14,604 nt of DNA, taken from the IMG/VR virus record IMGVR_UViG_3300009180_000026, one strand, 5' to 3'. The notes below the pieces were generated by a model. It was given only the letters and a program-made list of their open reading frames with translations. It searched no databases and was not told where the DNA came from. Below are positions 988 through 14,604 of the stretch, in pieces. This DNA is from a virus. Lineage: Duplodnaviria; Heunggongvirae; Uroviricota; Caudoviricetes. Within the stretch, counting starts at the first letter, position 1, and each line of letters begins with the position of its first letter. Made by a program: the position numbers and the translations under genes.

Positions 988-1019
988 TTTGGTATTATGT
1001 ATAATTTTTAGTATATTTA
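988..1019 (+). promoter_or_regulatory. Bacteroidota sigma-A type promoter, TTTG-N20-TATATTTA
   Basis: TTTG at 988-991 and TATATTTA at 1012-1019, 20-bp spacer; matches the -33/-7 consensus TTTG / TAnnTTTG except the last base; intergenic. Confidence 0.65.
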
Positions 1020-1047
1020 GGGGGTACAAAGCCCCCATTTTATTTTT
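1020..1047 (+). terminator. Probable intrinsic terminator
   Basis: GGGGGT-ACAAA-GCCCCC stem-loop (1020-1036) followed by ATTTTATTTTT. Confidence 0.5.
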
Positions 1048-1066
1048 CATTTAAAAACAAAAAAAC

Positions 1067-2542: not shown

Positions 2543-2591
2543 TTAAAATAATATACCCCATTTATTCTTATATTTGGGGTATATTTTAATT
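2541..2591. other. Intergenic inverted repeat (hairpin/cruciform; possible terminator) enclosing a promoter box
   Basis: ATATACCCCA (2551-2560) and TGGGGTATAT (2575-2584) form a perfect 10-bp stem, extendable by AATTAAA/TTTAATT across a 3-nt bulge; 14-nt loop. Confidence 0.7.
2569..2576 (+). promoter_or_regulatory. Bacteroidota -7 element TATATTTG
   Basis: Exact TAnnTTTG in the intergenic space ahead of the HNH gene; no TTTG at the -33 position. Confidence 0.5.
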
Positions 2592-2594
2592 ATT

Positions 2595-2993
2595 ATGGCT
2601 ACAAAAAGAAAAAAGGCTGTTGCTAAACCTAAAACACTAAAGACTAGAAATGCAGGCACTATGACAGAGTCTGCATTTTGGTCTTTTATTAGAAGTGGAC
2701 TAAGACAAAAGAGTAGGTTTTGGAAACCTATTACACAATGTAAGATGAGTAACAGAAGAGTGTATAAAGGACCTCTCAAGAGGCAGAAGTTTGAATATCA
2801 GTGTGCAGAGTGTTCTCAGTGGTTTCCTGAGAAGAAAATTAATGTTGACCACATTACACCTGCTGGATCTTTAAGATGTGCTGATGACCTCCCAGGGTTT
2901 GTAGAAAGACTGTTCTGTGAAATTGACAACTTACAAATCTTGTGCTCCACCTGTCACAATGTTAAAACTCAAAATGAAAAAGATGGAAGATGA
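2595..2993 (+). CDS. HNH endonuclease (phage, Zn-binding)
   Basis: YQCAEC...NVDHITP...RLFCEIDNLQILCSTCHNVKT: two CxxC pairs with DH and N catalytic residues. ATG 2595 preferred over TTG 2574, which falls inside the promoter hairpin. Confidence 0.85.
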   Translation: MATKRKKAVAKPKTLKTRNAGTMTESAFWSFIRSGLRQKSRFWKPITQCKMSNRRVYKGPLKRQKFEYQCAECSQWFPEKKINVDHITPAGSLRCADDLPGFVERLFCEIDNLQILCSTCHNVKTQNEKDGR

Positions 2994-3231
2994 AAAACAA
3001 TTAAAGGTCTCTATTAACAAAGAACCTTCATTTACAGAGATTTGGTATGAAGGATCTGTTGAATACAATGGAGAAGAACACAAGTTTTGGTTGATACATC
3101 CTTTGCAAACAGATGTGAATGGTGCACACTATGAAGTGGACGTTAGATGGTTCTTTGCTAGAGTTCCAAGGGAAGTGAGAGCAATGATTCCATATATTAT
3201 TGACGCATTTAAACAAACATTAAAAACATGA
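2983..3231 (+). CDS. Hypothetical protein (82 aa)
   Basis: ATG 2983 overlaps the HNH stop; ends with an ATGA overlap into the next gene; composition is protein-like. Confidence 0.7.
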   Translation: MEDEKQLKVSINKEPSFTEIWYEGSVEYNGEEHKFWLIHPLQTDVNGAHYEVDVRWFFARVPREVRAMIPYIIDAFKQTLKT

Positions 3232-4274
3232 TAAAAACAGAAAAGAGTTACAGGGCCATACAAATGGACAGTTCAAGTTCTTTAAAAGAATTCTCAACTA
3301 ACAGAAAGAAGTATTACAAAAAGTATATACTGAATGAAAGAGTTGAAGAAGAAGATAACAAAGCTGCCACTATAGGCAGAGTGGTAGAAACCTTGTTGTT
3401 AGAACCACATGAGTTTGATGGTAGATTTTACATGTCTACATGTGCAAGTGCTCCTACAGGGCTTATGTTAGCTTTTGTAGAGGCTTTATATAAGCACACT
3501 ATGGCAAACACAGATGAGAATGGAAACATCAGTGTAGAGTTTGAAGAGATTTGTAAAGCAGCTTATGCTGATTCAGGATTCAAGATTAAATTTGATGCTG
3601 TATTAGCCAAGTTTATAGGAAGTGATGCTGAAATCTTCTATAAGGAACTAAGAGAAGTGAAAAGCAAAGGTCTTACAGTGGTTACAACAGAAGATGTCAC
3701 TAATGCTGAAAACATTGTTACAGAGTTAAAAAGTAACTTTGTCACTGCAGAAGTGGTAAATCTTGTAAATAGTGCTAGATGGACTGTTAATAATCAGTTC
3801 CAGATAGAAGGTTATAGTGTTGATGGCCATTTGTTTAAGAGCATGATGGATAAGATAGTTATTGATCATAACGAAAGAACAATACAAGTGTACGATCTTA
3901 AATGTACATGGAGTGTTGAGAACTTCTATGAGGAATACTATCTCTATCGTAGAGCTTACATCCAAGCCTATCTTTATTATAAAGGAGCACAATCTCTTAC
4001 CATCCATCAGGAAAGTGAACTTTATGGATATGAGGTGGTCTATCCAAAGTTTATTGTATGCGATAGTACAAACTATTTCAATCCATTAATCTATACGCTT
4101 GATTTCACAGATATGACAAATGCATATGAAGGATTTGTTCATAAAGGTAGATTTTATCCAGGTGTGAAACAGCTTATTGAAGATCTTGAATGGGCTATTG
4201 AGAATGATGTTTGGAACATTAGTAGGGAAAATTATTTAAATCATGGATTTGTAAATGTAAAAGGAGGAAATTAA
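3228..4274 (+). CDS. PD-(D/E)XK nuclease, RecE/exonuclease VIII-like
   Basis: N-terminal SSSSLKEF...IGRVVETLLLEP and C-terminal FKSMMDKIVID...VYDLKCT...YIQAYLY motifs typical of ExoVIII-like phage exonucleases. Confidence 0.8.
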   Translation: MIKTEKSYRAIQMDSSSSLKEFSTNRKKYYKKYILNERVEEEDNKAATIGRVVETLLLEPHEFDGRFYMSTCASAPTGLMLAFVEALYKHTMANTDENGNISVEFEEICKAAYADSGFKIKFDAVLAKFIGSDAEIFYKELREVKSKGLTVVTTEDVTNAENIVTELKSNFVTAEVVNLVNSARWTVNNQFQIEGYSVDGHLFKSMMDKIVIDHNERTIQVYDLKCTWSVENFYEEYYLYRRAYIQAYLYYKGAQSLTIHQESELYGYEVVYPKFIVCDSTNYFNPLIYTLDFTDMTNAYEGFVHKGRFYPGVKQLIEDLEWAIENDVWNISRENYLNHGFVNVKGGN

Positions 4275-4825
4275 TGGAGATAAAAAAGACCATCACTAGT
4301 ATATTCATAATGCCTACATTGAAAATAGGTAGAGAAAGGTTGCTTGGAAATGGATATATTAATGGATATATAAAAGATGAGGGAAAGGATGTACAATATC
4401 AAAACGCTGTATATGCTCTTTTCAAACCAAAAAAGATGGATGCTTTCCGTGAGTTTCTTGATGAAGAATATGCAAGAACAAACCAAATCATAGATGATTA
4501 TGATTATCCAGATGGGTTCGTTGTTGTTGTATATAACTTGGATGAGAAATTTAAGAAAGACTTCCTTCTTATTAAAGAAGGACTCTATTCTAAAACTTCC
4601 AAAGAGTTTCAAGCTCAGTTTCCAAAGATTGTAAAACTATTTAAGAATGGGCTTCATAAGGATGAAATCTCTCTTCAATATCGTGTCTTCAATAAGACAG
4701 AAGATCTTAAGAAATATTGGGAAGAAAAACTTGGTGTAGAATTCGATGATTCTATGGAAGTTTGGGATGGTTTTAACATTGATAAAGAAACTCTCAACCT
4801 TAATAAAATTAAACAATATGTATAA
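4274..4825 (+). CDS. Hypothetical protein (183 aa)
   Basis: TAATG coupling to the upstream gene; long ORF in the operon direction; no recognisable motif. Confidence 0.8.
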   Translation: MEIKKTITSIFIMPTLKIGRERLLGNGYINGYIKDEGKDVQYQNAVYALFKPKKMDAFREFLDEEYARTNQIIDDYDYPDGFVVVVYNLDEKFKKDFLLIKEGLYSKTSKEFQAQFPKIVKLFKNGLHKDEISLQYRVFNKTEDLKKYWEEKLGVEFDDSMEVWDGFNIDKETLNLNKIKQYV

Positions 4826-5015
4826 CGAACTATTATTAACAAAGTTAATTGCTGATTTTGGTGTAGACCAAACTATTACTTATTGTAAAATGGAAAGTGC
4901 AAAGAATGCCTATCTGTTTGAAGAGTGTGTTGCTTCAGGTGAAGATCTCACTTGTACACAATATGATTTTGAAAGAGATTGGTGGAAAAATGCAGAATTA
5001 AAATTAAAATCTTAA
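4818..5015 (+). CDS. Hypothetical protein (65 aa)
   Basis: ATG 4818 overlaps the previous stop (ATGTATAA); fills the gap in the operon. Confidence 0.65.
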   Translation: MYNELLLTKLIADFGVDQTITYCKMESAKNAYLFEECVASGEDLTCTQYDFERDWWKNAELKLKS

Positions 5016-5018
5016 ATT

Positions 5019-5375
5019 ATGAAAATGTTAGAACTATTAAAAGAACATCCTAAAACAGCCATTGTTATAAAACAATGGTTTTTAGAGAAGATGTTAGAAA
5101 GTCTTAAAGATGAATCTCTTCCTGAAGATTTCAAAGATTATGTAAGAGAACAAGGAATAGATGATGAGAAGATAGCAAATATGGTGGAAACTTCTCCTAG
5201 AAGTCTATTTGATATATTTGATGATCATAAACTGTACATCAATATTGACATGACTGCAGGTCATTGGGGATGGGAAGTTGGATCATCTGTTGAAAATGCT
5301 GTATGCTCATCTAGAAAAGAAGCTGAGATGGCAGCTATTGTTGAATCATTTAAATTATTGGAGGAAAAATTATGA
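5019..5375 (+). CDS. Hypothetical protein (118 aa)
   Basis: ATG 3 nt after the previous stop; ATGA overlap with the next gene. Confidence 0.75.
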   Translation: MKMLELLKEHPKTAIVIKQWFLEKMLESLKDESLPEDFKDYVREQGIDDEKIANMVETSPRSLFDIFDDHKLYINIDMTAGHWGWEVGSSVENAVCSSRKEAEMAAIVESFKLLEEKL

Positions 5376-5623
5376 GAGACAAAATAGTAGATGATGTAAT
5401 AGATAAATACTATGAGAGAAGTCAAGTGGGAATCACTAAATATGGAACCACGTTGTATAACAACAATAAAGACAACTATCTCAAGCATTTACAAGAAGAA
5501 CTTATGGATGCCACTCTGTACATTGAGAAACTCATGTATCTAAGGGAAGAACTAACGTGTTTAGTTAACACTTATGATAATGATGCAGATCTTGGTGCAG
5601 CTGTAAGGATTTTTGTTAAGTGA
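5372..5623 (+). CDS. Small all-alpha MazG-like nucleotide pyrophosphohydrolase (putative)
   Basis: DKIVDDVIDKYYERSQVGITKYGTTL...HLQEELMDATLYIEK: KYG and EExxD motifs of small phage NTP-PPase-like proteins; adjacent to nrdJ. Confidence 0.5.
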   Translation: MRDKIVDDVIDKYYERSQVGITKYGTTLYNNNKDNYLKHLQEELMDATLYIEKLMYLREELTCLVNTYDNDADLGAAVRIFVK

Positions 5624-5636
5624 TATTTTTAATTTA

Positions 5637-5669
5637 TTTGGATTATAAGGGCTGTAAGTTGTATATTTA
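5637..5669 (+). promoter_or_regulatory. Bacteroidota-type promoter TTTG-N21-TATATTTA for nrdJ
   Basis: TTTG at 5637-5640 and TATATTTA at 5662-5669; the -7 box is identical to that at 1012-1019. Confidence 0.65.
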
Positions 5670-5685
5670 CAGCCCTTTATTTTTT
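5647..5685 (+). terminator. Intrinsic terminator overlapping the nrdJ promoter
   Basis: AAGGGCTGTAA (5647-5657) and TTACAGCCCTT (5667-5677) form a perfect 11-bp stem with a 9-nt loop, followed by TATTTTTT. Confidence 0.7.
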
Positions 5686-5706
5686 AACAATTAAACAAAA
5701 ACATTT

Positions 5707-7557
5707 ATGGATTTAGGATTACAAGCTCTCTCGGACATAACTGTATACAGTAAATATGCAAAGTTTGTTCCAGAGAAGAAGAGAAGAGAAACTTGGGATG
5801 AAATCATTGATCGTTATCAGGATATGATGATTAAGAAATACCCAATGCTTGAAGAGGCTATTATTAAAAGTGCTGAATTGATTAGATTGAAGAAAGTCCT
5901 ACCATCAATGAGAGCTTTACAGTTTGCAGGTGCTGCAGCTGAGGTGAACAATGCAAGAATTTACAACTGTTGTTTCCTTCCTATAGACAGTCTTCACAGT
6001 TTTAGTGAAACAATGTTCTTATTATTAGGAGGAACAGGTGTTGGATATTCTGTACAGAAACATCACGTTGAACAACTTCCAGCTATTACAAAACCAGGTA
6101 AGAAGAAAACATATCTTATTGAGGATTCTATAATGGGATGGGCTGATGCTGTAAAGGTGTTATTCAAAGCTTATATGGAAGGTAAGTTTATGCCTTCATT
6201 TGATTTTAGAGCTATTAGACACAAAGGTGCTAGACTTGTCACTGCTGGTGGTAAAGCTCCTGGTCCTGAACCATTAAAACTTTGTCTCACACACGTACAA
6301 GCTATTTTAGACAGAAAACAGGAAGGAGAACATCTATCTCCTATAGAAGCACATGATATATTGTGTCACATTGCTAACTCTGTATTAGCAGGTGGTATTA
6401 GAAGAAGCGCTATGATTGCATTGTTTAGCCTTGATGATGAGGAAATGATTACATGTAAATACGGTAATTGGTGGGAAACAAATGAACAACGTGGTAGGGC
6501 TAACAATTCTGCTGTTCTTGAGAGAGGAAATGTCTTAGCTACAGAATTCTTTGATCTTTGGAAGAGAATAGAAGCTTCTGGATCTGGAGAACCTGGAATC
6601 TATTGGACTAACAATAAAGATTGGGGAACTAATCCTTGTTGTGAGATTGCTCTTAGGCCATATCAATTCTGTAACCTTTGCGAGATAAATGTAAGTGATA
6701 TTGAAAGTCAGATAGATCTTAATGATCGTGTATCTGTAGCAGCATTCTTTGGTACATTACAAGCTGGGTTTACAGACTTCCATTACTTACGTCCTATATG
6801 GAAACAAACTACAGATAAAGATGGTTTGTTAGGAATAGGAATGACAGGAATTGGTTCAGGAAAGATTCTTGAGGCAGACCTTGAAATAGCAGCTAACACA
6901 GCTACTGTTGTGAATTCTACAATTTCAGCTATAATAGGAACTAATGAAGCAGCTCGTGTAACATGTATAAAACCATCAGGTACAACAAGTTGTGTATTAG
7001 GAACAGCTAGTGGTATTCATGCTTGGCATGCTCCATATTACTTAAGAACAATTAGATTTAATAAGAATGAAGATATTGCAATGTTTATGGAAGTAAATCA
7101 TCCTGAACTATGTGAAGATGATGTGCTTAGACCAAAAGATACATTGTGTATAAGAATTCCTATTAAAGCTCCAGAAGGTTCTATATTCAGAACAGAAACA
7201 GCTATTGATACATTAGAACGTGTTAAGAAGTTTTCTATAGAATGGGTGAAAGCAGGACATGTTAGAGGTGATAACACACATAATGTAAGTGCTACAATTT
7301 CTGTTAATAATGATGAATGGCCTACAGTGGGAGAATGGATGTGGAATGAACGAGATCATTACAATGGTCTTTCAGTTTTACCATATTTTGGAGGTTCTTA
7401 CAAACAAGCTCCTTTTGAGGACATAACAGAGGAAGAATATAATTCTAGGATAGGTCATTTAAAATCCTTAGATTTGACAAAAGTTATGGAAATAGATGAT
7501 AACGTAGAATTTGGTCAGACAGCAGCATGCGCAGGTGGTGCATGTGCTATAGAATAA
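5707..7557 (+). CDS. nrdJ: Class II (adenosylcobalamin-dependent) ribonucleotide reductase, monomeric type
   Basis: YNCCF, GGTGVGYSV, AGGIRRSAMI, SGEPG, GTNPCCEI (thiyl-radical Cys), QFCNLCE, TCIKPSGT and C-terminal CAGGAC redox pair; no ATP cone; no beta-subunit gene follows. Confidence 0.93.
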   Translation: MDLGLQALSDITVYSKYAKFVPEKKRRETWDEIIDRYQDMMIKKYPMLEEAIIKSAELIRLKKVLPSMRALQFAGAAAEVNNARIYNCCFLPIDSLHSFSETMFLLLGGTGVGYSVQKHHVEQLPAITKPGKKKTYLIEDSIMGWADAVKVLFKAYMEGKFMPSFDFRAIRHKGARLVTAGGKAPGPEPLKLCLTHVQAILDRKQEGEHLSPIEAHDILCHIANSVLAGGIRRSAMIALFSLDDEEMITCKYGNWWETNEQRGRANNSAVLERGNVLATEFFDLWKRIEASGSGEPGIYWTNNKDWGTNPCCEIALRPYQFCNLCEINVSDIESQIDLNDRVSVAAFFGTLQAGFTDFHYLRPIWKQTTDKDGLLGIGMTGIGSGKILEADLEIAANTATVVNSTISAIIGTNEAARVTCIKPSGTTSCVLGTASGIHAWHAPYYLRTIRFNKNEDIAMFMEVNHPELCEDDVLRPKDTLCIRIPIKAPEGSIFRTETAIDTLERVKKFSIEWVKAGHVRGDNTHNVSATISVNNDEWPTVGEWMWNERDHYNGLSVLPYFGGSYKQAPFEDITEEEYNSRIGHLKSLDLTKVMEIDDNVEFGQTAACAGGACAIE

Positions 7558-7594
7558 TATTGTTTTTGTTTCGTTTTTGATGATTGATGATTAC

Positions 7595-7631
7595 AGCCCC
7601 ATTGTTTCTACAATTTGGGGCTCTTTTTTTT
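7595..7631 (+). terminator. Rho-independent terminator after nrdJ
   Basis: AGCCCC-ATTG-tttcta-CAAT-tt-GGGGCT stem-loop (7595-7622) followed by C and an 8-T run. Confidence 0.8.
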
Positions 7632-7660
7632 GTCAAAACGAGAATAATTAATTAACTTTA
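7629..7660 (+). promoter_or_regulatory. Bacteroidota-type promoter TTTG-N20-TAACTTTA for recA
   Basis: TTTG at 7629-7632 (end of the terminator T-tract) and TAACTTTA at 7653-7660, 20-bp spacer; 20 nt upstream of the recA ATG. Confidence 0.6.
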
Positions 7661-7680
7661 CAGACTAAAAATCAATCAAT

Positions 7681-8706
7681 ATGGCGAAAGCAAAAGAAGC
7701 TCCAGAGAGCAAAGGTAAATTTCAAGATGCACTTGATAAGCTAAACAAAGCTTATGGTGTAGGAACTGTTCTTACATTAGACAGTAAAACCACTGGTGAT
7801 TATGATCTTATTAGCACAGGAAGTGTGGGATTTGATCACATCACATTAGGAACAGGTGGATTTGTTAAAGGTAAGATGTATGAACTTATGGGATGGGAAG
7901 GTTCAGGTAAATCAACAATTTGTGGACATGCTGTAGCAGAATGCCAAAAGAAAGGTGGTGTTGTTCTGTATATAGATGGTGAGCATGCTGTTGATAAACA
8001 TTATTTTGAAGCATTGGGTGTAGACACTACAAAGATGCTTATTGCCCAACCATCATGTGGTGAGGAAGGTTTCAACATTGCTATGGAGATGATTGAAACA
8101 GGAACCATCGATCTTATTATCATAGATTCAGATTCTAGTCTTATTCCTAAGAAAGTCTTAGATGGTGAGGTGGGTGATTCTTCTATTGGTAAGAAAGCTC
8201 TGCTTAATTCAAATGCCTATCCAAAGCTTAAAGGTGCTTTGTCTCAACACAATGTATGTGTAATTGTTATTTCTCAGTATAGAGAAAAGATAGGTGTTAT
8301 GTTTGGTAATCCTACAACAACTCAGGGAGGACATGCTCTTAAGTTTTATTCAGATGTTCGTATAGAAGTGTCTAAATCTCTTGCTAAAGAAGGAGATCAA
8401 GCTTATGGTAACATCACCAAGGTGAAAGCTATTAAGAACAAGATGAGTCCTCCATATAGACTATCTAGTTTTGAAATCATCTATGGCCAGGGTATTGATA
8501 AGATTGGAGAACTAATGGAACTCATTAACGAGTTTGAGATAGGTAGAAAGTATGGTAAGACAATGACCATAAATGAAATCAAATATGATCTTGAAGATTT
8601 CAAAAGAATGTTAATGGACAATGAAGAATTCTATAATGACATTGTGAAACAAATTTTAAACAAAATTAATAACGTAAAAATTGAAGAAAATGCAGGTGAA
8701 ATTTAA
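7681..8706 (+). CDS. recA: RecA-family recombinase (phage-encoded)
   Basis: ISTGSVGFD..LGTGG, ELMGWEGSGKST (Walker A), YIDGEHAVD, LIIIDS (Walker B), QYREKIGVMFGNPTTTQGGHALKFYSDVRIEV, KNKMSPPYR. Confidence 0.95.
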   Translation: MAKAKEAPESKGKFQDALDKLNKAYGVGTVLTLDSKTTGDYDLISTGSVGFDHITLGTGGFVKGKMYELMGWEGSGKSTICGHAVAECQKKGGVVLYIDGEHAVDKHYFEALGVDTTKMLIAQPSCGEEGFNIAMEMIETGTIDLIIIDSDSSLIPKKVLDGEVGDSSIGKKALLNSNAYPKLKGALSQHNVCVIVISQYREKIGVMFGNPTTTQGGHALKFYSDVRIEVSKSLAKEGDQAYGNITKVKAIKNKMSPPYRLSSFEIIYGQGIDKIGELMELINEFEIGRKYGKTMTINEIKYDLEDFKRMLMDNEEFYNDIVKQILNKINNVKIEENAGEI

Positions 8707-9256
8707 AAAATTACATGCAAATGCTCAACTTCCTGTAAAGGGGAGTGAGCATGCTGCGTGTTTTGATGTTTATGCTACAAGTGTAACAGCAGAATATGGT
8801 GGAAAGGTTACATATGGATTAGGATTTGCAACAGAAATTCCAGTGGGCTATATGGGAATATTAGTTCCTAGAAGCAACATCACTAAACATAAATGGGTGA
8901 TGAACAATTCTACAGGTATAATTGACAGTGATTATAGAGGAGAGTGGATGATGAAGCTCAATTCTATAGGAAAAGATTTTGAAGAACTTCCATATGCTGT
9001 AGGAGATAGAATAGGACAAATCTATTTCATACCAATCCTTCCTACCACCTTTGAAGAAGTCTCATCATTAGATGATTCTGCAAGAGGAGAGGGTGGATTT
9101 GGTTCTACAGGAATAGGAGTGTTAAATATTCATTCTTCTGGAACTGATCTTGATAAAACGTGGATTGATGAAATTCATAATACCAATTATTATATTGATC
9201 CTAAATTCATAACTACAACAAACATTGCAGATGGGAAAATTAATATTACAGCTTGA
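8690..9256 (+). CDS. dut: Trimeric dUTPase with a 47-aa C-terminal extension
   Basis: All five motifs present: ACFDVYA, PRSN, GIIDSDYRGE, GDRIGQ, RGEGGFGSTG. ATG 8690 preferred over TTG 8681. Confidence 0.92.
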   Translation: MQVKFKKLHANAQLPVKGSEHAACFDVYATSVTAEYGGKVTYGLGFATEIPVGYMGILVPRSNITKHKWVMNNSTGIIDSDYRGEWMMKLNSIGKDFEELPYAVGDRIGQIYFIPILPTTFEEVSSLDDSARGEGGFGSTGIGVLNIHSSGTDLDKTWIDEIHNTNYYIDPKFITTTNIADGKINITA

Positions 9257-9458
9257 TGATGATGAAATGAATATATTTAAGAAACAATATGTAAACCTTG
9301 TAGATCTTCATGATGAAATTGAAAAGCTTTTTGAAGAAGGAGAAAAGCTTGACAAGCGTAAGAAGAAAGCTTATGCAGAATGGAAAGAAAAGATTAACTT
9401 TCTGATTGATGTATATAATACAAGGGCAACGTTTAAAACCTATAACAAAGTAAAATGA
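9231..9458 (+). CDS. Hypothetical helical protein (75 aa)
   Basis: ATG 9231 overlaps the end of dut; ATGA overlap into the next gene; charged amphipathic helices. Confidence 0.65.
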   Translation: MGKLILQLDDDEMNIFKKQYVNLVDLHDEIEKLFEEGEKLDKRKKKAYAEWKEKINFLIDVYNTRATFKTYNKVK

Positions 9459-10138
9459 GAATATTGCACATTAGTGACACCCATAGCTATCATGAGATGT
9501 TTCCTATGGAGAGATTTAAAGACATAGATGTTGTTGTACACTCAGGAGATTGTTCCAATTATAAAGATCATATTAGGAATGAACAAGAAGTTAGAGCTTT
9601 CATAGCTTGGTATAAAGATGTTCCTGTTAAACACAAAATTTATGTAGCAGGTAATCATGATACTAGCATAGAAAGAAACAGAGTTACACCAGCAGATTTT
9701 CATTCTGAAGGAATCACCTATCTTGAGAATGCAGGCACCACTATAGATGGTGTTAAGTTTTGGGGAAGTCCTCACACTCCTACATTTGGTCAATGGGCTT
9801 TTATGAAAAGTAGACAAACCATTAACAGAGTGTGGCAGAACATTCCTATAGATGTAGATGTTCTTATAACCCACGGTCCTCCTAAAGGTGTAAGAGATCT
9901 CTCACATGATAGAGATGGAATCCTTGAATTCTGTGGAGACAGTGCTCTTATGAAAGCTGTATGGGGATTGAAACCAAAATGTATGTTGTTTGGACATATA
10001 CACAACTCTCCAGGATGTGATAATCAAGGAATCTCTCATTATTCTAAAACACCAACAATCTTTTCTAACGCTTCATGTGTAGATGATGGAAGATTTGATC
10101 TAGGACTTACATCATTTGGAAATATAATTGAAATATGA
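9455..10138 (+). CDS. Calcineurin-like metallophosphoesterase, MPPED1/2 (239FB)-like
   Basis: HISDTH, HSGDC, VAGNHD, LITHGPP.G, PKCMLFGHIH, FSNAS: the full metal-ligand set in the subfamily-typical arrangement. Confidence 0.88.
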   Translation: MRILHISDTHSYHEMFPMERFKDIDVVVHSGDCSNYKDHIRNEQEVRAFIAWYKDVPVKHKIYVAGNHDTSIERNRVTPADFHSEGITYLENAGTTIDGVKFWGSPHTPTFGQWAFMKSRQTINRVWQNIPIDVDVLITHGPPKGVRDLSHDRDGILEFCGDSALMKAVWGLKPKCMLFGHIHNSPGCDNQGISHYSKTPTIFSNASCVDDGRFDLGLTSFGNIIEI

Positions 10139-10527
10139 AATGTAAAACATGTGGGAAAAACTCAGAATCAGAATATTGCTTCCAACATAAACCAAGAAAG
10201 CCTCTTAAAAGTGTAAAATTTTCAACAGTTAAACGGAAAACTTCCGATGATTCAGCACAAATTTTACAAATGCAAGAGTTCTTCCTTGATATATGGAGAA
10301 AGAGAAAAGAACACAACTGTGAAAACTGTAAGAAGTGGCTTGGTAGTGAGCCACTTTCTTATATGTTTGATCATCTTCTTGAGAAAAGTAAATACCCTGA
10401 TCTCAAACTTAAAGAAGAAAATATAATGTTAGTGTGTTTAGAATGTCACGATCTTAAAACAAGAGGTTTTGTAACTGATTTTGTTAGAGATAAAATAGAA
10501 GAAGTTAGGAACAAGTTTGATAAATAG
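10135..10527 (+). CDS. Zn-finger plus HNH-like nuclease
   Basis: N-terminal CKTC...YCFQH; C-terminal CENC...FDHLLEKS...EENIMLVCLECHD (HNH-like core). Confidence 0.65.
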   Translation: MKCKTCGKNSESEYCFQHKPRKPLKSVKFSTVKRKTSDDSAQILQMQEFFLDIWRKRKEHNCENCKKWLGSEPLSYMFDHLLEKSKYPDLKLKEENIMLVCLECHDLKTRGFVTDFVRDKIEEVRNKFDK

Positions 10528-10528
10528 T

Positions 10529-10536
10529 TATCTTTG
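10529..10536 (+). promoter_or_regulatory. Bacteroidota -7 element TATCTTTG upstream of phoH
   Basis: Exact TAnnTTTG in a 22-bp intergenic gap; a near-consensus TTAG lies 20 bp upstream (10505-10508). Confidence 0.45.
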
Positions 10537-10549
10537 GTAAAACTTAAAT

Positions 10550-11200
10550 ATGAAAGAACCTAACAGAGAACGTAAACAAGACATTAAATATAAAATTACA
10601 TTAAACGAAGAACAGAAAGAAGCTAAAAGACTCATCCTTGAAAATCAGATTGTGATCATCACTGGTAGAGCTGGTTGTGGTAAGAGTCTTGTTAGTGCTC
10701 AAGTTGCTTTAGATTTCCTTTTTAAAAAACAATGTGATCAAATCCTAATTACAAGAGCTGCTATTGAGGTGGGTAAAAGTCTTGGGTTTCTACCAGGAAG
10801 CCTTGATGAAAAGTTTGATCCTTATTTAGAAGCATTTCAAGAAAATCTTATGAAGTGTTATGATAAGGTGAAAGTGGAAGAGATGGTCACTGCTAAAAAG
10901 ATCAATGCACTACCTGTACAGTTTATAAGAGGAAAAACAATTGATGATATATTGATTGTAGAAGAAGCCCAAAACTTAAGCAAAGCAGAGATGTTAGCAA
11001 TTGTTACAAGACTAGGAAAGAATGGTAAGATTATAATTAATGGAGACAATGAACAAAAGGATATTAGAGATGAGTTTAATGGCCTAAGTTTCATCACCTC
11101 TCTTGTTAAGAAGATTCCAGAGATTAAATATATAAATCTCAAACACAACCACAGGTCTGATCTTGTGGGTAAAATTTTAGAATTAGAATACGGTAAATAA
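10550..11200 (+). CDS. phoH: PhoH-like ATPase
   Basis: ITGRAGCGKS (P-loop), TRAAIEVGKSLGFLPG, FIRGKT, IVEEAQN, RLGKNGKIIINGD..QKD, RSDLV. Confidence 0.92.
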   Translation: MKEPNRERKQDIKYKITLNEEQKEAKRLILENQIVIITGRAGCGKSLVSAQVALDFLFKKQCDQILITRAAIEVGKSLGFLPGSLDEKFDPYLEAFQENLMKCYDKVKVEEMVTAKKINALPVQFIRGKTIDDILIVEEAQNLSKAEMLAIVTRLGKNGKIIINGDNEQKDIRDEFNGLSFITSLVKKIPEIKYINLKHNHRSDLVGKILELEYGK

Positions 11201-11216
11201 TTAAAACCAAATAAAC

Positions 11217-11516
11217 ATGAATCAATTTTTCTACACTCGTAAAGAGCTTGTATCTGGAACACCAGAAAATCCTGAATTCAAAGAGTTCAGAGACAGTTTT
11301 AACATCAACAAGGTTGTGAGAACAATCACTATGATTGATGAACGTACATTAGTTTTATTAGATGATCTACATGAAAGAGCTCAAGAAGTTCCTGATATAG
11401 ATCCTAAAACAAATAAGATGAGAGCTATGAAACGTGTTAAAGACACCTTCCAATCTGAGATCTATCTTGATCCTTCAGATGCTGTTAGATTCCAAAAAGT
11501 CACATCTCTAGACTAA
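11217..11516 (+). CDS. Hypothetical protein (99 aa), last gene of the rightward arm
   Basis: A-rich start AAAACCAAATAAAC-ATG; ends just before the bidirectional terminator. Confidence 0.8.
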   Translation: MNQFFYTRKELVSGTPENPEFKEFRDSFNINKVVRTITMIDERTLVLLDDLHERAQEVPDIDPKTNKMRAMKRVKDTFQSEIYLDPSDAVRFQKVTSLD

Positions 11517-11524
11517 TAGAAATA

Positions 11525-11553
11525 AAAAAGCCCTCTTAAATTGAGGGCTTTTT
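11525..11553. terminator. Bidirectional intrinsic terminator
   Basis: AAAAAGCCCTC-ttaaatt-GAGGGCTTTTT perfect inverted repeat, with T-tracts on both strands, between convergent gene arms. Confidence 0.9.
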
Positions 11554-11570
11554 AATTCTTTGTAAGAAGA

Positions 11571-11804
11571 TTATGCAATTGCTTCAAGATCAGCCTTAAC
11601 AGCTTCGATCTTTTCAACAACAGCTTGTCTTGCTTCAGCTGTACCACCTTCAGCAACCATTGCTTCTAAAGCAGCAATTGATTCAGTTAATCCAGTAATT
11701 GCTGCATCTTTTGCAGAAATTAAGATAGCAATTTGTTCTTGCTCAGCATCAAGAGCAGCTTGTAGTTCATCTACTTTTGCAGAGATTTCTTCTAATGTAG
11801 CCAT
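11571..11804 (-). CDS. Acidic Ala-rich coiled-coil protein (77 aa)
   Basis: Heptad pattern LEEISAKVDELQAALDAEQEQIAIL; start context CTAAAAACAAATAAAC-ATG. Confidence 0.85.
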   Translation of the reverse strand: MATLEEISAKVDELQAALDAEQEQIAILISAKDAAITGLTESIAALEAMVAEGGTAEARQAVVEKIEAVKADLEAIA

Positions 11805-11823
11805 GTTTATTTGTTTTTAGAGG

Positions 11824-11991
11824 TTAAATAATTGAATTTATATCGTCTATAGACTCTTCTAACTTATCATATATTTCTTGCTTGATCTTTGCATTTTCAG
11901 CAAGAATCATGTCAAGCTTTCTTTCTATTTGCCTAAGTCTTTTCTTAGTGTCATTGTCTATAGCGTTGATAATAAAGGTAAATAGTCTCAT
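11824..11991 (-). CDS. Small coiled-coil protein (55 aa; absent from the ORF track)
   Basis: Manual translation: MRLFTFIINAIDNDTKKRLRQIERKLDMILAENAKIKQEIYDKLEESIDDINSII*; fills the gap between two (-) genes. Confidence 0.75.
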   Translation of the reverse strand: MRLFTFIINAIDNDTKKRLRQIERKLDMILAENAKIKQEIYDKLEESIDDINSII

Positions 11992-11997
11992 ATTAAT

Positions 11998-12177
11998 TTA
12001 TTTTGATAATCTTTTTTGCATCATTGGTTGCATAGGTGATGTTCGTATTGCTTTATCATCCATAGATTTATTCTTGGAAAAAGGTTTATCCTTCTTAGGA
12101 ATACCAACCTTTGGAGCTTTTCTTGGAGCTCCTGATTTCTTAGCTTTACCAGCTGTTAAGCCTTTACTTGCAGCCAT
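11998..12177 (-). CDS. Small Lys-rich basic protein (59 aa)
   Basis: MAASKGLTAGKAKKSGAPRKAPKVG...; ATG 12177 overlaps the last codons of the upstream gene and is preferred to the longer start at 12204. Confidence 0.7.
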   Translation of the reverse strand: MAASKGLTAGKAKKSGAPRKAPKVGIPKKDKPFSKNKSMDDKAIRTSPMQPMMQKRLSK

Positions 12178-12466
12178 ACTTACATTTTTTAGCCATCTTA
12201 CCACCTTTTTTCATATCCTGAGTCATCCTACCTCTTGTTTGATCTGATGCACTTTTACTAGCTGCCTGTGCTTGAAGTTGTGAAGTACCAGTTTGAGCCT
12301 TCTTAACCTTCATTCCTTTCTTAGCAATAACACCACGACCTTTAAGAACATCAGCCTTCGTGATTTTACCATCTTTGTTTAAGTCTGGGAATGATTTACC
12401 ATTCTTAGCTTTAGTAGTTCCACCCATCATCTGCATTTTTTTAGCAGGTTTTTTCATTGTAGCCAT
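12164..12466 (-). CDS. Lys/Met-rich basic protein with an EF-hand-like loop (100 aa)
   Basis: Contains DLNKDGKITKAD plus MMGG, KKAQTG and MKKGGK motifs. Confidence 0.85.
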   Translation of the reverse strand: MATMKKPAKKMQMMGGTTKAKNGKSFPDLNKDGKITKADVLKGRGVIAKKGMKVKKAQTGTSQLQAQAASKSASDQTRGRMTQDMKKGGKMAKKCKYGCK

Positions 12467-12469
12467 GAT

Positions 12470-12631
12470 TTATTTTTTTAAAGTGTCAACAATAGTTGTA
12501 TCAATAACTCTAACTGATTCTACAACCTTAGTTGTGTCAGAGATTTTAGTTGAATCAACAGAAACAGTTTCTGTAGAAGCACCACCACATGCTGATAACG
12601 CTACAGCTAATACGAATAACAATTTTTTCAT
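12470..12631 (-). CDS. Mini-lipoprotein (53 aa; absent from the ORF track)
   Basis: MKKLLFVLAVALSA-CGGASTETVSVDSTKISDTTKVVESVRVIDTTIVDTLKK*: basic n-region, hydrophobic h-region, lipobox LSA-C15, Thr/Asp/Val-rich tail. Confidence 0.85.
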   Translation of the reverse strand: MKKLLFVLAVALSACGGASTETVSVDSTKISDTTKVVESVRVIDTTIVDTLKK

Positions 12632-12647
12632 TTTTTATTTTTAAGGT

Positions 12648-13082
12648 TTAACAATTCCATTTTCTTAAAGCTAGTGCTTTTCTTGTAGGTTTACCATTAG
12701 GCTTTTTCATAGGGCCTTTAACTCCACTCATTCTAGCACAAAATGATTTCCTACGTTTAGCAGGTTTGCTATCTGGATCTAATTTAGAAGGCTTTGTTGT
12801 AACAGCCATCTTTAATTTACTTCCAGGATTAGCACGTCTATAACTAGCAACACCTTTTCTATTAAGACCACCTGCAGGATCTTTTCCTTCAGAGCGTGTC
12901 CAAGCAGGTGTACTACCACCATTCTTTAAAGAAGAACCTTTAAATGGACCTTTCTTCTTAATAAGTGGACCATTAGGAACAGGTGTGATTGCACCACCTT
13001 TTCTAAGAACACCTTTTCCTACATAAGCAGAAGCTTTCTGTGGGTTGTAGGGTCCTTTTCCTATTTTCTTAATTGTTGCCAT
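12648..13082 (-). CDS. Basic protein with a widespread phage C-terminal domain (DUF6321-like, from recall)
   Basis: TPAWTRSEGKDPAGGLNRKG...RRKSFCARMSG..GPMKKPNGKPTRKALALRKWNC resembles a recurrent uncharacterised phage domain; Lys/Gly-rich N-terminus. Confidence 0.7.
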   Translation of the reverse strand: MATIKKIGKGPYNPQKASAYVGKGVLRKGGAITPVPNGPLIKKKGPFKGSSLKNGGSTPAWTRSEGKDPAGGLNRKGVASYRRANPGSKLKMAVTTKPSKLDPDSKPAKRRKSFCARMSGVKGPMKKPNGKPTRKALALRKWNC

Positions 13083-14080
13083 TATAATGTATTTCTAAAA
13101 TCAGTTGTAAGATCTGTCCAAGTTCCTGAATTTCTCAACCATAATTCACTGAAAACAATACAAGGTGCATATCCATCATCTACATTAATAAATGTTCCAG
13201 ATAGGAAATAAAGATCTTTTTGCCCTGTAAGAACAGGAATTAATGTATTCTTTAAATCTGTAAAACTTGCTGCTCTTATATATTCTGTAGCTAATTTAAC
13301 ACCAGCACTATATTTAGTGGGGTCTAAAACAAAGTTATAGGGAGCAGAACAAAGTGTAGCTCTGTTTGTATATAGAATATTAGCAAGTGTATAGTATTGA
13401 TCATTATCAGCAAATACACCAGCACCTCTAGTTGGAGCAGAACCACCAGAACCATTTGTCATAACCCAGTTAGCAGCTGTAACAACAGCACCACATGTAT
13501 TATCACTTGTAGCAGAAGTCTTTCCTCTTCTTAACATTCTACCTACATTATCATTAGCAGTAACAAGATCAGCTTGTTGTGTAACTCCTATGTGAGGCAT
13601 GTTAATTAACAATAATGGTCCATCAGTAGGAGTCATTGTTGTAGCATGACTTTGCCAAGCTTGTAATGCTAGAGCTCCTGTATGAGGATAACCAGCTAAT
13701 CCACCACCCATAAATGGTCCAAGATAGGAATTTAATGCTGGAGGATTTTGTCCTATGTTATTAATATCAGCAAACTCAGAAGCATTAACATCATCTGAAC
13801 ACACTGTAAGATTTAAAACTGTATCACTAGTTTTCACACCTCTATCAGAAAGGAATAATTGTAACCTTGTAGTAAGATGTTGAGCTAATACAGCATCTGG
13901 ATAGGTTGTTTGTACAACATCAAGATAGTGCTGAGTAGTCTTATTAAAATATTCTACAGGTTGAACCTCTTTCCATATACCCACCTTAGGAGCATGAGTG
14001 TATAAACCAAGACTTCCTGGTACTATTTCTCCATTTTTTAGAAACCTTGCATAAGGTTTTAACTTTATACTTTTTGCCAT
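13082..14080 (-). CDS. LCIB/theta-type carbonic anhydrase-like protein with an N-terminal phage module
   Basis: Ordered motifs YPDA, TVCSDDVN (C94, D96), FMGGGLAGYPHTG, SH, INMPHIG (H163), GRMLRRG, TCGA (C196), DQ, SGTFINVDDG match the LCIB/C family with Cys-His-Cys Zn ligands. Confidence 0.8.
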   Translation of the reverse strand: MAKSIKLKPYARFLKNGEIVPGSLGLYTHAPKVGIWKEVQPVEYFNKTTQHYLDVVQTTYPDAVLAQHLTTRLQLFLSDRGVKTSDTVLNLTVCSDDVNASEFADINNIGQNPPALNSYLGPFMGGGLAGYPHTGALALQAWQSHATTMTPTDGPLLLINMPHIGVTQQADLVTANDNVGRMLRRGKTSATSDNTCGAVVTAANWVMTNGSGGSAPTRGAGVFADNDQYYTLANILYTNRATLCSAPYNFVLDPTKYSAGVKLATEYIRAASFTDLKNTLIPVLTGQKDLYFLSGTFINVDDGYAPCIVFSELWLRNSGTWTDLTTDFRNTL

Positions 14081-14550
14081 TATTTCTTTTTAGCCATTTT
14101 CTTGAATGTCTTAGCAAGAGCTTTAGCTTTGCCAGTACATCCAGGTTTTGTAATAGGAGTACATTTACCAGCAGTTCCACGTTTCTTAATAGAAGCTGTA
14201 GCTTTCTGTATCCATTTACCATCTTTAGCTTTTGTTACACCACCAGTCTTTTCTTTTTTAATAGAATTCTTTTTATAGTTTTCTTTTCCTTCTTTAGCTC
14301 CCATATGAACTTGAAGGTCACTAAAAAGACCAGCATCACTACCTCTTATTCCTGCTTTATACCCAGCTCTATAATTTGAGCTATCTAAACCAGTTGGTTT
14401 TTTACCAGCTGGTACAAACAAGTCTATATACTTATACTTTGTAGAAGGTCTAGTATTAATAGCAGGCTTTTCTACTCTTGTATTATCAGCTTTAGCTTGA
14501 AGAGGTTTCCCAGAATTTTGGTATTTCTTAACCTTTTTCATTATAGCCAT
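14080..14550 (-). CDS. Lys-rich basic protein (156 aa) with a C-terminal Cys-pair domain
   Basis: KKVKKYQNSG; KTGGVTKAKDGKWIQKATASIKKRGTAGKCTPITKPGCTGKAKALAKTFKKMAKKK; TAATG coupling to the next gene. Confidence 0.85.
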   Translation of the reverse strand: MAIMKKVKKYQNSGKPLQAKADNTRVEKPAINTRPSTKYKYIDLFVPAGKKPTGLDSSNYRAGYKAGIRGSDAGLFSDLQVHMGAKEGKENYKKNSIKKEKTGGVTKAKDGKWIQKATASIKKRGTAGKCTPITKPGCTGKAKALAKTFKKMAKKK

Positions 14551-14552
14551 GA

Positions 14553-14603
14553 CTATTTCTTTTTAGACATTTTACCACCCATTTTTTTCTGAGGAAGACC
14601 TGG
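14553..14603 (-). CDS. C-terminus of another Lys-rich protein (truncated by the window edge)
   Basis: Manual translation ...PGLPQKKMGGKMSKKK* (TAG at 14555-14553), 2 nt before the next ATG; same KxGG motif as its neighbours. Confidence 0.7.
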   Translation of the reverse strand, partial: PGLPQKKMGGKMSKKK

Positions 14604-14604
14604 A

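What the first reader, a model, noticed from the sequence alone, without database searches (positions are those of the whole stretch)
13082..13942. Phage-encoded LCIB/theta-class carbonic anhydrase-like domain with intact zinc ligands
Seen: C94 (13801-13799) in CSDD, H163 (13594-13592) in PHIG and C196 (13495-13493) in CGA, plus YPDA, GGLAGYP and GTFINV in the family's order. Known: LCIB/LCIC of Chlamydomonas and diatom theta-CAs have a beta-CA-like fold with Cys-His-Cys zinc coordination and act in CO2-concentrating mechanisms. I am not aware of this family being characterised in phages. Inference: an auxiliary metabolic gene supplying bicarbonate (for pyrimidine/purine synthesis or anaplerotic carboxylation) or buffering pH in a heterotrophic host; some LCIB members are inactive alone, so activity is unproven.
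Basis: partly seen in the sequence, partly recalled or inferred. Interest (0 to 1): 0.9.

Follow-up and report, generated by a model that had tools for sequence, protein, structure and literature searches.

The report
Phage LCIB-type carbonic anhydrase with adaptor
An uncultured 114-kb freshwater phage encodes a protein with the fold and full zinc active site of the algal CO2-concentrating factor LCIB. The enzyme domain carries a short N-terminal module that the same phages put on adhesin-like late proteins, so it may ride on the virus particle rather than act as an ordinary metabolic helper gene.

Summary
ORF 13082-14080(-), 332 aa, matches Pfam LCIB_C_CA (E 1.7e-17). Its model superposes on diatom PtLCIB4 (Z 26.4, rmsd 2.1 A, 233 of 241 residues). 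C94, H163 and C196 align to the PtLCIB4 zinc ligands. D96, H145 and R184 align to other active-site residues. All six are invariant in 44 homologs down to 41% identity.

The DNA is phage. The window spans the ends of a complete 113,975-bp IMG/VR genome. Seventy-six viral contigs carry homologs, against one 1.5-kb MAG contig among 185,579 species genomes. The phage proteins form one clade (SH-aLRT 100), apart from algal and bacterial LCIBs.

The gene ends the 71-kb late/structural arm and overlaps both basic-protein neighbours by TAATG. That module also sits on 30 other late ORFs, some with LRR or lectin-like payloads.

My best reading is a late-expressed, probably active carbonic anhydrase docked to the particle. 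Neither activity nor location has been tested. This scan found such phage LCIB genes before on other DNA. I found no publication describing them.

The parts
13082..14080 (-). Whole ORF, 332 aa plus stop: N-terminal adaptor module followed by an LCIB-type carbonic anhydrase domain
   Evidence: 97-98% identical copies on complete or near-complete IMG/VR phage genomes
13937..14080 (-). N-terminal adaptor module, aa 1-48, predicted as three short beta strands; not part of the LCIB fold
   Evidence: The model shows strands 8-13, 25-27 and 35-38, and LCIB structures align only from residue 49-50. The module is shared with a 245-aa late ORF of the same phage at 46% identity over 37 aa. It also occurs on 30 non-LCIB ORFs in related phages.
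13085..13933 (-). LCIB/theta-type beta-carbonic anhydrase domain, aa 50-332
   Evidence: VIA-align Z 26.4, rmsd 2.1 A, 233/241 residues against 5b5y_B, model range 50-329; Pfam PF18599
13790..13801 (-). C94-S95-D96-D97: first zinc ligand and catalytic Asp; Ser95 aligns to PtLCIB4 Ser47
   Evidence: Alignment to 5b5y; C94, D96 and D97 invariant; codons checked
13646..13648 (-). H145, aligns to PtLCIB4 His88 (the residue mutated in PDB 5b5z)
13586..13597 (-). P162-H163-I164-G165: second zinc ligand (PtLCIB4 His102)
13523..13531 (-). R184-R185-G186: aligns to the RRG of PtLCIB4; R184 and G186 invariant; candidate partner Arg of the Asp
   Evidence: The review PMC5876011 names His162 and Arg194 of CrLCIB as important active-site residues.
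13487..13495 (-). C196-G197-A198: third zinc ligand (PtLCIB4 Cys126)
13712..13777 (-). Clade-specific loop, aa 102-123, with invariant N108, G110, Q111, L120, G121 and F123; 9 residues longer than in PtLCIB4; low model confidence
13295..13486 (-). Internal helical segment, aa 199-262, exchanged between lineages as a cassette
   Evidence: Identity 77-89% in proteins whose core is 48-55% identical, and 27% in proteins whose core is 89-91% identical
14080..14550 (-). Upstream 156-aa Lys-rich basic protein; its stop overlaps the LCIB start (TAATG)
   Evidence: homolog on the same strand within about 3.2 kb of the LCIB gene in 35 of 77 related loci
12648..13082 (-). Downstream 144-aa basic protein with C-terminal DUF6321; its start overlaps the LCIB stop (TAATG)
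   Evidence: Pfam PF19846 E 1.4e-22; junction sequence; on the same strand near the LCIB gene in 46 of 77 loci, often directly downstream
11571..12631 (-). Last genes of the same minus-strand arm: a 53-aa ORF, a 100-aa basic protein and a 77-aa coiled-coil protein
11525..11553 (.). Bidirectional hairpin terminator where the late (minus) arm and the replication (plus) arm converge

Best explanation
The ORF encodes a two-part late phage protein. Residues 50-332 are a complete LCIB-type (theta / beta-like) zinc carbonic anhydrase domain. It belongs to a clade found almost only on viral contigs. The three zinc ligands (C94, H163, C196), the catalytic Asp (D96), the His88-equivalent (H145) and the partner Arg (R184) are all retained. 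The most likely chemistry is therefore reversible CO2 + H2O <-> HCO3- + H+. Residues 1-48 are a small beta module. This phage group places the same module at the N-terminus of many otherwise unrelated late proteins, some carrying LRR or lectin-like payloads. I read the module as a docking adaptor that ties its payload to a common partner, most likely a component of the particle. The gene is transcribed with the late/structural arm and translated in a coupled chain with Lys-rich basic proteins. The enzyme is therefore made late and probably travels on or in the virion, rather than acting as a free early metabolic enzyme. Shown here: fold, family, residues, phage origin, operon structure and module sharing. 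Inferred: zinc binding, activity, late timing and particle association. Unknown: what the CO2/bicarbonate chemistry achieves for the phage.
For: Family and fold: Pfam E 1.7e-17. AF2 model pLDDT 81.7. Z 26.4, rmsd 2.1 A over 233/241 residues of PtLCIB4, against Z 11-12 for canonical beta-CAs.

Active site: residue-by-residue alignment to 5b5y. All six residues are invariant in 44 homologs down to 41% identity. The motifs are kept in 75 viral ORFs. dN/dS is 0.2-0.37 for unsaturated pairs.

Phage origin and clade: the window maps across the ends of a complete 113,975-bp DTR genome. There are 76 IMG/VR loci against one 1.5-kb MAG contig in the species genomes. The viral-type sequences form one clade with SH-aLRT 100 on a 0.72 branch, which contains all three N-terminal types.

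Late/structural setting: every ORF of 200 aa or more from 71 kb down to 2 kb of the reference genome is on the minus strand. These include the major head protein homolog and proteins of 1153 to 4441 aa, and the LCIB gene lies at the 3' end of this block. TAATG overlaps occur on both sides of the gene. In two other lineages the gene lies 1-3 kb downstream of the major head protein gene on the same strand.

Adaptor: the N-module occurs on 30 non-LCIB ORFs with variable C-termini, including BspA-type LRR and Fib_succ_major domains. An unrelated 83-aa N-terminus on other LCIB homologs is likewise shared with neighbouring 73-88-aa, 122-aa and 778-aa ORFs. All 75 viral ORFs retrieved carry an N-terminal extension.
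Against: No experiment or proteome places this protein in a particle. Gene position and shared modules are indirect evidence. The adaptor's partner is unidentified. About six of 23 cluster representatives of the clade start within 6-24 residues of the LCIB domain, so they may lack an adaptor. Chlamydomonas LCIB and LCIC have the same ligands yet showed no activity in vitro (PMC5876011 and PMC9614477), so intact residues do not prove catalysis. The conserved clade-specific loop next to the active site is modelled with low confidence, and its effect on the site is unknown. No known role exists for a carbonic anhydrase on a virion.
Confidence: 0.45

Rival explanations
1. Soluble auxiliary metabolic enzyme. 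The protein acts in the infected cytoplasm as a carbonic anhydrase. It supplies bicarbonate for carboxylations (carbamoyl-phosphate synthetase, the PurK step, acetyl-CoA carboxylase, anaplerotic PEP or pyruvate carboxylation) or buffers pH. The N-terminal module would serve folding or oligomerisation and have nothing to do with the particle.
For: The active site is intact and conserved. The phage invests heavily in nucleotide metabolism: RNR, dUTPase and PhoH lie in the same window. The likely host phylum is Bacteroidota, since the best cellular RecA relatives are Bacteroidota at 43-47%; from general knowledge, many of its members depend on anaplerotic CO2 fixation. Free-standing bacterial LCIB homologs exist in Fluviicola and Methylobacter chromosomes. 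[quoted passage not shown]
Against: The gene is not in the plus-strand replication/nucleotide arm. It lies at the end of the late structural arm, coupled to basic proteins. Late synthesis is poorly timed for feeding nucleotide synthesis. The same N-module sits on LRR and lectin-like payloads that have no metabolic role. In other lineages the gene lies next to the head protein gene.
Confidence: 0.3
2. Non-catalytic use of the fold. Like Chlamydomonas LCIB/LCIC in vitro, the domain binds zinc but does not turn over CO2 on its own. It would then serve as a structural, binding or CO2/bicarbonate-sensing module on the particle.
For: CrLCIB and CrLCIC keep the ligands yet lacked measurable activity. 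The protein evolves fairly fast outside its core (dN/dS 0.2-0.37). An internal 64-aa segment and the N-module are swapped between lineages, as in surface proteins. Its sister payloads are binding domains.
Against: Invariance covers not only the ligands but also D96, H145 and R184, which are catalytic rather than structural residues. Position 95 is Ser, as in PtLCIB4, for which PDB 5b60 holds an S47R mutant. PtLCIB3 and PtLCIB4, the closest solved relatives, are described as constitutively active (PMC9614477).
Confidence: 0.15
3. The domain is an enzyme of the same fold with another small substrate, such as carbonyl sulfide or carbon disulfide. Such hydrolases are known among beta-CA-fold proteins.
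For: From general knowledge, beta-CA-fold COS and CS2 hydrolases use the same Cys-His-Cys plus Asp-Arg site. The phage clade has its own invariant loop next to the active site (aa 102-123) that could reshape the substrate tunnel.
Against: No LCIB-family member is known to do this. Nothing in the gene neighbourhood points to sulfur chemistry. The closest structures are all LCIB proteins.
Confidence: 0.05

Closest known systems
PtLCIB4 / PtLCIB3 of Phaeodactylum tricornutum (LCIB family, also called theta-CA; PDB 5b5y, 5b5z, 5b60)
   Same: The whole-domain fold matches (Z 26.4, rmsd 2.1 A, 233/241 residues). The Cys-His-Cys ligands, CSD motif, His88-equivalent, RRG motif and Ser after the first Cys are all shared.
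   Different: Sequence identity is only 22-24%. The phage protein has a 48-aa N-terminal adaptor, a 9-residue longer invariant loop after the first ligand and a swapped helical segment. It lacks plastid targeting. It is encoded in a phage late operon, not in an algal CO2-concentrating system.
Chlamydomonas LCIB / LCIC (PDB 5k5w, 5b5x)
   Same: Same family and fold (Z 20.5 and 20.3) and the same ligand set.
   Different: These proteins are more distant (17-18% identity). They form an LCIB-LCIC complex around the pyrenoid and lacked activity in vitro. The phage protein is closer to the active diatom type at position 95.
Free-standing bacterial LCIB_C_CA proteins (for example in Fluviicola and Methylobacter tundripaludum genomes; also PDB 6kfs)
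   Same: They are single-domain prokaryotic members of PF18599. The Fluviicola protein is 29% identical to the phage protein over the full domain. A small group of similar single-domain proteins (P0162, P0179, P0262), to which these are 42-44% identical, is the nearest neighbour of the phage clade in the tree, with support 87.
   Different: They are about 250-aa proteins with no N-terminal adaptor, in ordinary chromosomal neighbourhoods. They lack the phage-clade motifs GLAGYPHTG and NIGQ.
Canonical beta-carbonic anhydrases (E. coli Can/YadF, H. influenzae HICA, Nce103)
   Same: Same core fold and Cys-His-Cys zinc site (Z 11-12).
   Different: They have the CxDxR motif. Here the residue four after the Cys is Val, and the Arg comes from elsewhere in the chain. 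The fold match is much weaker than to LCIB proteins.
Modular phage surface proteins with a shared N-terminal anchor and variable distal domain (tail-fibre or decoration paralogs)
   Same: A short conserved N-terminus sits on many late ORFs with unrelated, fast-changing C-terminal payloads. Payloads include LRR and lectin-like domains, and the genes lie in the structural arm.
   Different: Here one payload is a metabolic-type metalloenzyme, for which I know no precedent. Attachment to the particle is inferred, not shown.

Membership tests
LCIB family (Pfam PF18599 LCIB_C_CA; theta-CA) | Profile match above the curated threshold | tested here: met
   63.9 bits against a cut-off of 25, E 1.7e-17, profile positions 4-144. 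Homologs with the same architecture match positions 14-220.
LCIB family (Pfam PF18599 LCIB_C_CA; theta-CA) | LCIB-type elaboration of the beta-CA fold over the whole domain | tested here: met
   Z 26.4/26.0/20.5 to 5b5y/6kfs/5k5w covering 233/241, 240/248 and 218/226 residues. Canonical beta-CAs reach only Z 11-12.
LCIB family (Pfam PF18599 LCIB_C_CA; theta-CA) | Cys-His-Cys zinc ligands at the homologous positions | tested here: met
   C94, H163 and C196 align to PtLCIB4 C46, H102 and C126. They are invariant in 44 homologs. Codons verified. Convergence in 3D is inferred from the 2.1 A superposition; model coordinates could not be measured directly.
LCIB family (Pfam PF18599 LCIB_C_CA; theta-CA) | Catalytic Asp two residues after the first Cys, plus the conserved His and Arg of the active site | tested here: met
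   D96, H145 (PtLCIB4 H88) and R184 (RRG motif) are aligned and invariant. The importance of the His and Arg is taken from PMC5876011.
LCIB family (Pfam PF18599 LCIB_C_CA; theta-CA) | Homodimer with the active site at the subunit interface | tested here: inconclusive
   The single complex job gave no verdict; see Tried and rejected.
LCIB family (Pfam PF18599 LCIB_C_CA; theta-CA) | Zinc content and CO2 hydration activity | not testable with these tools
   This needs recombinant protein, metal analysis and a MIMS or Wilbur-Anderson assay.
Canonical beta-carbonic anhydrase (Pfam PF00484 type) | CxDxR motif with the Arg two residues after the Asp | tested here: not met
   The sequence is C94-S-D96-D-V98. 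No Pro_CA profile hit appeared in the Pfam scan at E up to 1.
Auxiliary metabolic gene in the usual sense | Cell-derived metabolic gene carried by a phage | tested here: met
   This is a metabolic enzyme family with bacterial and algal members. The phage copies form an old, separate clade. The gene's GC (35%) equals that of the window (34%).
Auxiliary metabolic gene in the usual sense | Acts on host metabolism during infection (placed or expressed with metabolic or early genes) | tested here: inconclusive
   The gene sits at the end of the late/structural arm, not in the replication/nucleotide arm. Expression timing was not measured.
Modular virion proteins with a shared N-terminal anchor | The same N-terminal module on several late proteins with unrelated C-termini | tested here: met
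   There are two carriers in the reference genome and 30 non-LCIB carriers in related loci. Payloads include LRR_5 and Fib_succ_major. A second, unrelated N-terminus shows the same pattern.
Modular virion proteins with a shared N-terminal anchor | Physical presence in the particle | not testable with these tools
   This needs virion proteomics or cryo-EM of a cultured relative.

The most novel reading that the evidence does not exclude
Freshwater phages display an active carbonic anhydrase on, or package it in, their particles through a plug-in N-terminal anchor. CO2/bicarbonate chemistry would then take place at the host surface or at genome delivery, which would be a new class of virion-borne enzyme. 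The swapped internal segment and swapped anchors would reflect selection on an exposed particle component.
Probability: 0.35. Interest if true: 0.8.

Novelty: new variant of a known kind. Interest (0 to 1): 0.62.

Why it matters
LCIB/theta-type carbonic anhydrases are regarded as components of algal CO2-concentrating mechanisms, with a narrow distribution. This work shows a large clade of them almost confined to viral contigs, spread over several freshwater phage lineages of about 90 to 203 kb. All catalytic residues are kept, and the gene is always in the late or structural region. It is usually fused to modules shared with adhesin-like late proteins.

If the enzyme is active, phages manipulate inorganic carbon chemistry in lakes in a way not yet described. 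If it is on the particle, it would be the first carbonic anhydrase known as a virion component. The domain is also compact, diverse and lacks a transit peptide, so it offers a source of LCIB-type enzymes for engineering. The question is directly testable with recombinant protein and with lake viral-fraction proteomics.

Tried and rejected
1. Homodimer prediction (residues 50-332, two copies, with zinc) gave no verdict (score 0.00). It is not used for or against dimerisation.

2. INPHARED phage genomes held no tblastn or megablast match to the protein or the window. BFVD held no LCIB-type viral structure, only weak giant-virus beta-CAs and one 52-column match of the N-module to a protein of Virus NIOZ-UU157.

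3. PHROGs gave no significant family for the LCIB protein or for the N-terminal modules.

4. ESM Atlas search with residues 1-50 gave no usable hit.

5. Genomic context look-ups for distant clade members (P0144, P0142, P0151, P0162, P0160) returned only short contigs and did not settle their origin.

6. A search of species genomes with a profile of 34 single-domain LCIBs failed because no stretch was conserved enough. A single-protein query was used instead.

7. RNA evidence is weak. Contigs from four metatranscriptome libraries overlap the gene, including one 221-nt piece identical to 13432-13652 in a lake-water library. Contigs in an RNA library do not prove transcription and cannot give strand, ends or level, so I treat this only as a weak hint.

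8. The taxonomy of the MAG holding the only species-genome hit could not be obtained. The hit is a 1.5-kb contig and is probably a mis-binned phage fragment.

9. I considered folding the 245-aa N-module paralog. I dropped this because its payload has almost no homologs for an alignment.

10. The paper on the LCIB structures (Jin et al. 2016) is not held. Statements about the effects of the S47R and H88A mutants rest on PDB titles, reviews and my recollection.
Full report
1. The observation

The minus-strand ORF at 13082-14080 encodes 332 residues. The motifs YPDA, CSDD, GGLAGYP, PHIG, CGA and GTFINV follow in that order. The true start is the ATG at 14080.

2. Family and fold

Pfam gives a single hit, PF18599 LCIB_C_CA, at E 1.7e-17 and 63.9 bits against a cut-off of 25. 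phmmer against PDB sequences finds only LCIB-family entries: 6kfs, 5b5y/5b5z/5b60 and 9vzj/9w00/9w05.

An AlphaFold2 model built on 44 homologs has mean pLDDT 81.7. Foldseek ranks LCIB structures first (E 4e-14 to 1e-6), with canonical beta-CAs next at about E 1e-3. VIA-align gives Z 26.4, rmsd 2.1 A over 233 of 241 residues of PtLCIB4, spanning model residues 50-329. It gives Z 26.0 for 6kfs, about 20 for Chlamydomonas LCIB and LCIC, and 11-12 for ordinary beta-CAs. The whole LCIB domain is therefore present, including the C-terminal half that the Pfam alignment missed.

3. Active site

In the phmmer alignment to 5b5y, taking the construct offset from the named S47R and H88A mutants, the correspondences are as follows:
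- C94 = Cys46
- S95 = Ser47
- D96 = Asp48
- H145 = His88
- H163 = His102
- R184/R185 = the RRG motif
- C196 = Cys126

C94, D96, H145, H163, R184 and C196 are invariant in an alignment of 44 homologs that goes down to 41% identity. The motifs are kept in all 75 viral ORFs examined. A review states that His162 and Arg194 of CrLCIB, the equivalents of H145 and R184, are important active-site residues (PMC5876011). Another review states that PtLCIB3 and PtLCIB4 appear constitutively active, whereas CrLCIB had no measurable activity in vitro (PMC9614477). The canonical CxDxR motif is absent (C-S-D-D-V), as in other LCIB proteins. Pairwise dN/dS is 0.2-0.37 where dS is unsaturated. I could not measure ligand distances because the model coordinates are not exposed. 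Convergence of the three ligands is inferred from the close superposition.

4. It is a phage gene

The window contains RNR, RecA, dUTPase, a metallophosphatase, PhoH and HNH genes. It maps at 85-97% identity across the two ends of an IMG/VR genome of 113,975 bp with direct terminal repeats, rated 100% complete.

In that genome every ORF of 200 aa or more from 71 kb down to 2 kb is on the minus strand. These include a major head protein homolog at about 63-65 kb and proteins of 1153, 1947 and 4441 aa. A LamG-type protein and an M15 endolysin also lie in this minus-strand block. Every ORF of 200 aa or more from 80 to 113 kb is on the plus strand and belongs to replication and nucleotide metabolism.

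The LCIB gene lies at the 3' end of the minus (late) arm. A bidirectional terminator at 11525-11553 separates the two converging arms.

A motif-seeded scan found 76 distinct loci on viral contigs of up to 203 kb. The same scan found a single 1.5-kb MAG contig among one genome for each of 185,579 species. The 5.8-billion-protein search found 324 relatives, many on contigs of 113-127 kb. The gene's GC (35%) equals that of the window (34%). Near-identical DNA occurs in freshwater metagenomes from several studies. The closest cellular RecA relatives (43-47% identity) are almost all Bacteroidota. This weakly suggests the host phylum.

5. A clade confined to viral contigs

With a profile of the domain, viral-type proteins score E 1e-64 or better, and the next proteins score 1e-41 or worse. 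In a maximum-likelihood tree of 127 domains, all viral-type sequences fall on one side of a branch of length 0.72 with SH-aLRT 100. This holds for contigs of both 114 kb and 203 kb and for all three N-terminal types.

The nearest neighbours are three single-domain proteins (support 87). Tandem-domain proteins, some carrying a plastid-type PAP_fibrillin domain and so probably algal, lie far away. Relatives of that neighbour group sit in ordinary chromosomal contexts in Fluviicola (Bacteroidota) and Methylobacter. The Fluviicola protein is 29% identical to the phage protein and has no N-terminal extension. The tree is unrooted and was built with a quick search. I therefore claim one clade but no donor.

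6. Operon structure

The stop of the upstream 156-aa Lys-rich gene overlaps the LCIB start, and the LCIB stop overlaps the start of the downstream 144-aa gene. Both junctions read TAATG. The downstream protein carries DUF6321 (E 1.4e-22).

Across 77 related loci, a DUF6321 gene lies on the same strand near the LCIB gene in 46, often directly after it, including in proteins only about 42% identical. A Dps-like DUF5856 gene is nearby in 31 loci and the 156-aa basic protein in 35. DUF6321 is widespread in cyanophages and pelagiphages, always annotated as hypothetical. Earlier notes of this scan say such proteins were detected in cyanophage particles. I did not check that.

7. The N-terminal module

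LCIB structures align only from residue 49-50. Residues 1-48 are predicted as three short strands. A profile of this module finds exactly two ORFs in the 114-kb genome: the LCIB protein and a 245-aa late ORF (46% identity over 37 residues).

In the related loci the module heads 30 non-LCIB ORFs of 69-633 aa, often in tandem and with unrelated, fast-changing C-termini. Among the payloads are a BspA-type leucine-rich repeat domain (E 6e-26) and a Fib_succ_major domain (E 6e-36), both typical of surface binding proteins.

All 75 viral LCIB ORFs retrieved carry an N-terminal extension of one of three kinds: 45-57 aa (70 in one ORF, probably an over-extended start), 83-84 aa or 132-133 aa. The 83-aa kind is unrelated in its first half but is shared in the same way with neighbouring ORFs of 73-88, 122 and 778 aa. 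In that lineage the LCIB gene lies 1 kb downstream of the major head protein gene (phrog_138, E 1e-66) and upstream of a head-tail adaptor-like gene. In another lineage the head protein gene is 2.8 kb upstream.

About six of the 23 cluster representatives of the clade seem to begin close to the domain and may lack an adaptor.

8. Mosaic evolution

Identity to the query is decoupled between parts of the protein.
- The segment 199-262 is 77-89% identical in proteins whose core is 48-55% identical.
- The same segment is only 27% identical in proteins whose core is 89-91% identical.
- The N-module can be 96% identical where the core is 71%.

The protein has therefore been reassembled by recombination from at least three exchangeable parts while the catalytic residues stayed fixed.

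9. Interpretation

Four conclusions are firm:
- This is a genuine LCIB-type domain with a complete, conserved active site.
- It belongs to a clade found almost only on viral contigs.
- It is encoded in the late/structural arm.
- It is fused to a module shared with adhesin-like late proteins.

From this I infer that it is most likely an active zinc carbonic anhydrase, made late and docked by its N-terminal module to a common partner, probably part of the particle (confidence about 0.45).

It would fit a Bacteroidota host and a phage rich in nucleotide-metabolism genes, but it fits the gene's position and architecture less well. A non-catalytic role (about 0.15) is suggested by the inactive Chlamydomonas proteins and by the surface-protein style of evolution. 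Invariance of the catalytic Asp, His and Arg argues against it. A different small substrate such as COS or CS2 cannot be excluded (about 0.05).

10. Novelty

Searches for LCIB or theta-CA together with phage found nothing relevant. A 2026 survey of microbial carbonic anhydrases treats theta-CA as largely restricted to diatoms and protozoa and does not mention viruses (PMC13098186). [quoted passage not shown]

This scan has found phage LCIB genes before on other DNA. Two followed-up cases reached similar readings: a tandem pair in a 203-kb phage, and a probably virion-mounted copy behind a portal gene. I therefore rate this a new variant of a known kind: a known enzyme family in a new clade with a new architecture. 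It is not unique to this window.

Noticed in passing
window 13295-13486 (aa 199-262 of the LCIB protein): An internal helical segment behaves as an exchangeable cassette. It is 77-89% identical in homologs whose core is about 50% identical, and 27% identical in homologs whose core is about 90% identical. The N-module is swapped independently as well.
   Followed up: partly
window 11998-14603, minus strand: A chain of Lys-rich basic proteins surrounds the LCIB gene, several starting MA(T/I)(I/M)KK, and one carries DUF6321. The two junctions flanking the LCIB gene are TAATG overlaps. DUF6321 matches 543 phage records, mostly cyanophages and pelagiphages, all annotated hypothetical.
   Followed up: partly
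window 11525-11553: An 11-bp-stem hairpin with T-runs on both strands lies exactly where the plus-strand replication arm and the minus-strand late arm converge. It is probably a bidirectional terminator.
   Followed up: no
L003:4411-4833(-) (reference phage genome, 2 kb upstream of the LCIB gene): A Dps/ferritin-like DUF5856 protein (phrog_858) lies on the same strand near the LCIB gene in 31 of 77 related loci. Its link to the zinc enzyme, if any, is unknown.
   Followed up: no
L029:6990-8036(+), L034:2858-4081(+): Other payloads occur on the same N-terminal module. One protein has the module duplicated in tandem in front of a Fib_succ_major domain, and one has a BspA-type LRR domain. In most non-LCIB carriers the module ends in a Cys-Cys pair.
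   Followed up: partly
L039:5467-5730, L043:643-870, L045:5491-5724, L048:146-364: ORFs of 73-88 aa lie directly upstream of the LCIB gene in the 83-aa-adaptor lineage. Each consists of little more than that adaptor module.
   Followed up: no
reference genome G001, 20683-34023(-): A single 4441-aa ORF sits in the late arm, flanked by ORFs of 1947, 1373 and 1585 aa. They were not analysed.
   Followed up: no
window 7681-8706 (RecA): The best hit in the species genomes (77% identity) is a 2.8-kb contig binned with an Aquiluna MAG and is probably a mis-binned phage fragment. All other top hits (43-47%) are chromosomal RecA, mostly of Bacteroidota.
   Followed up: no
window 1-14604: Contigs of a fish-gut metatranscriptome library (X17) cover 29 of 30 bins of the window at 85-99% identity. 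Relatives of this phage, or their RNA, therefore occur in that sample.
   Followed up: no
window 5707-7557: A 616-aa ribonucleotide-reductase-like protein gives only a weak, partial Pfam barrel-domain match (E 8.6e-7, 78 residues). This suggests a divergent RNR.
   Followed up: no
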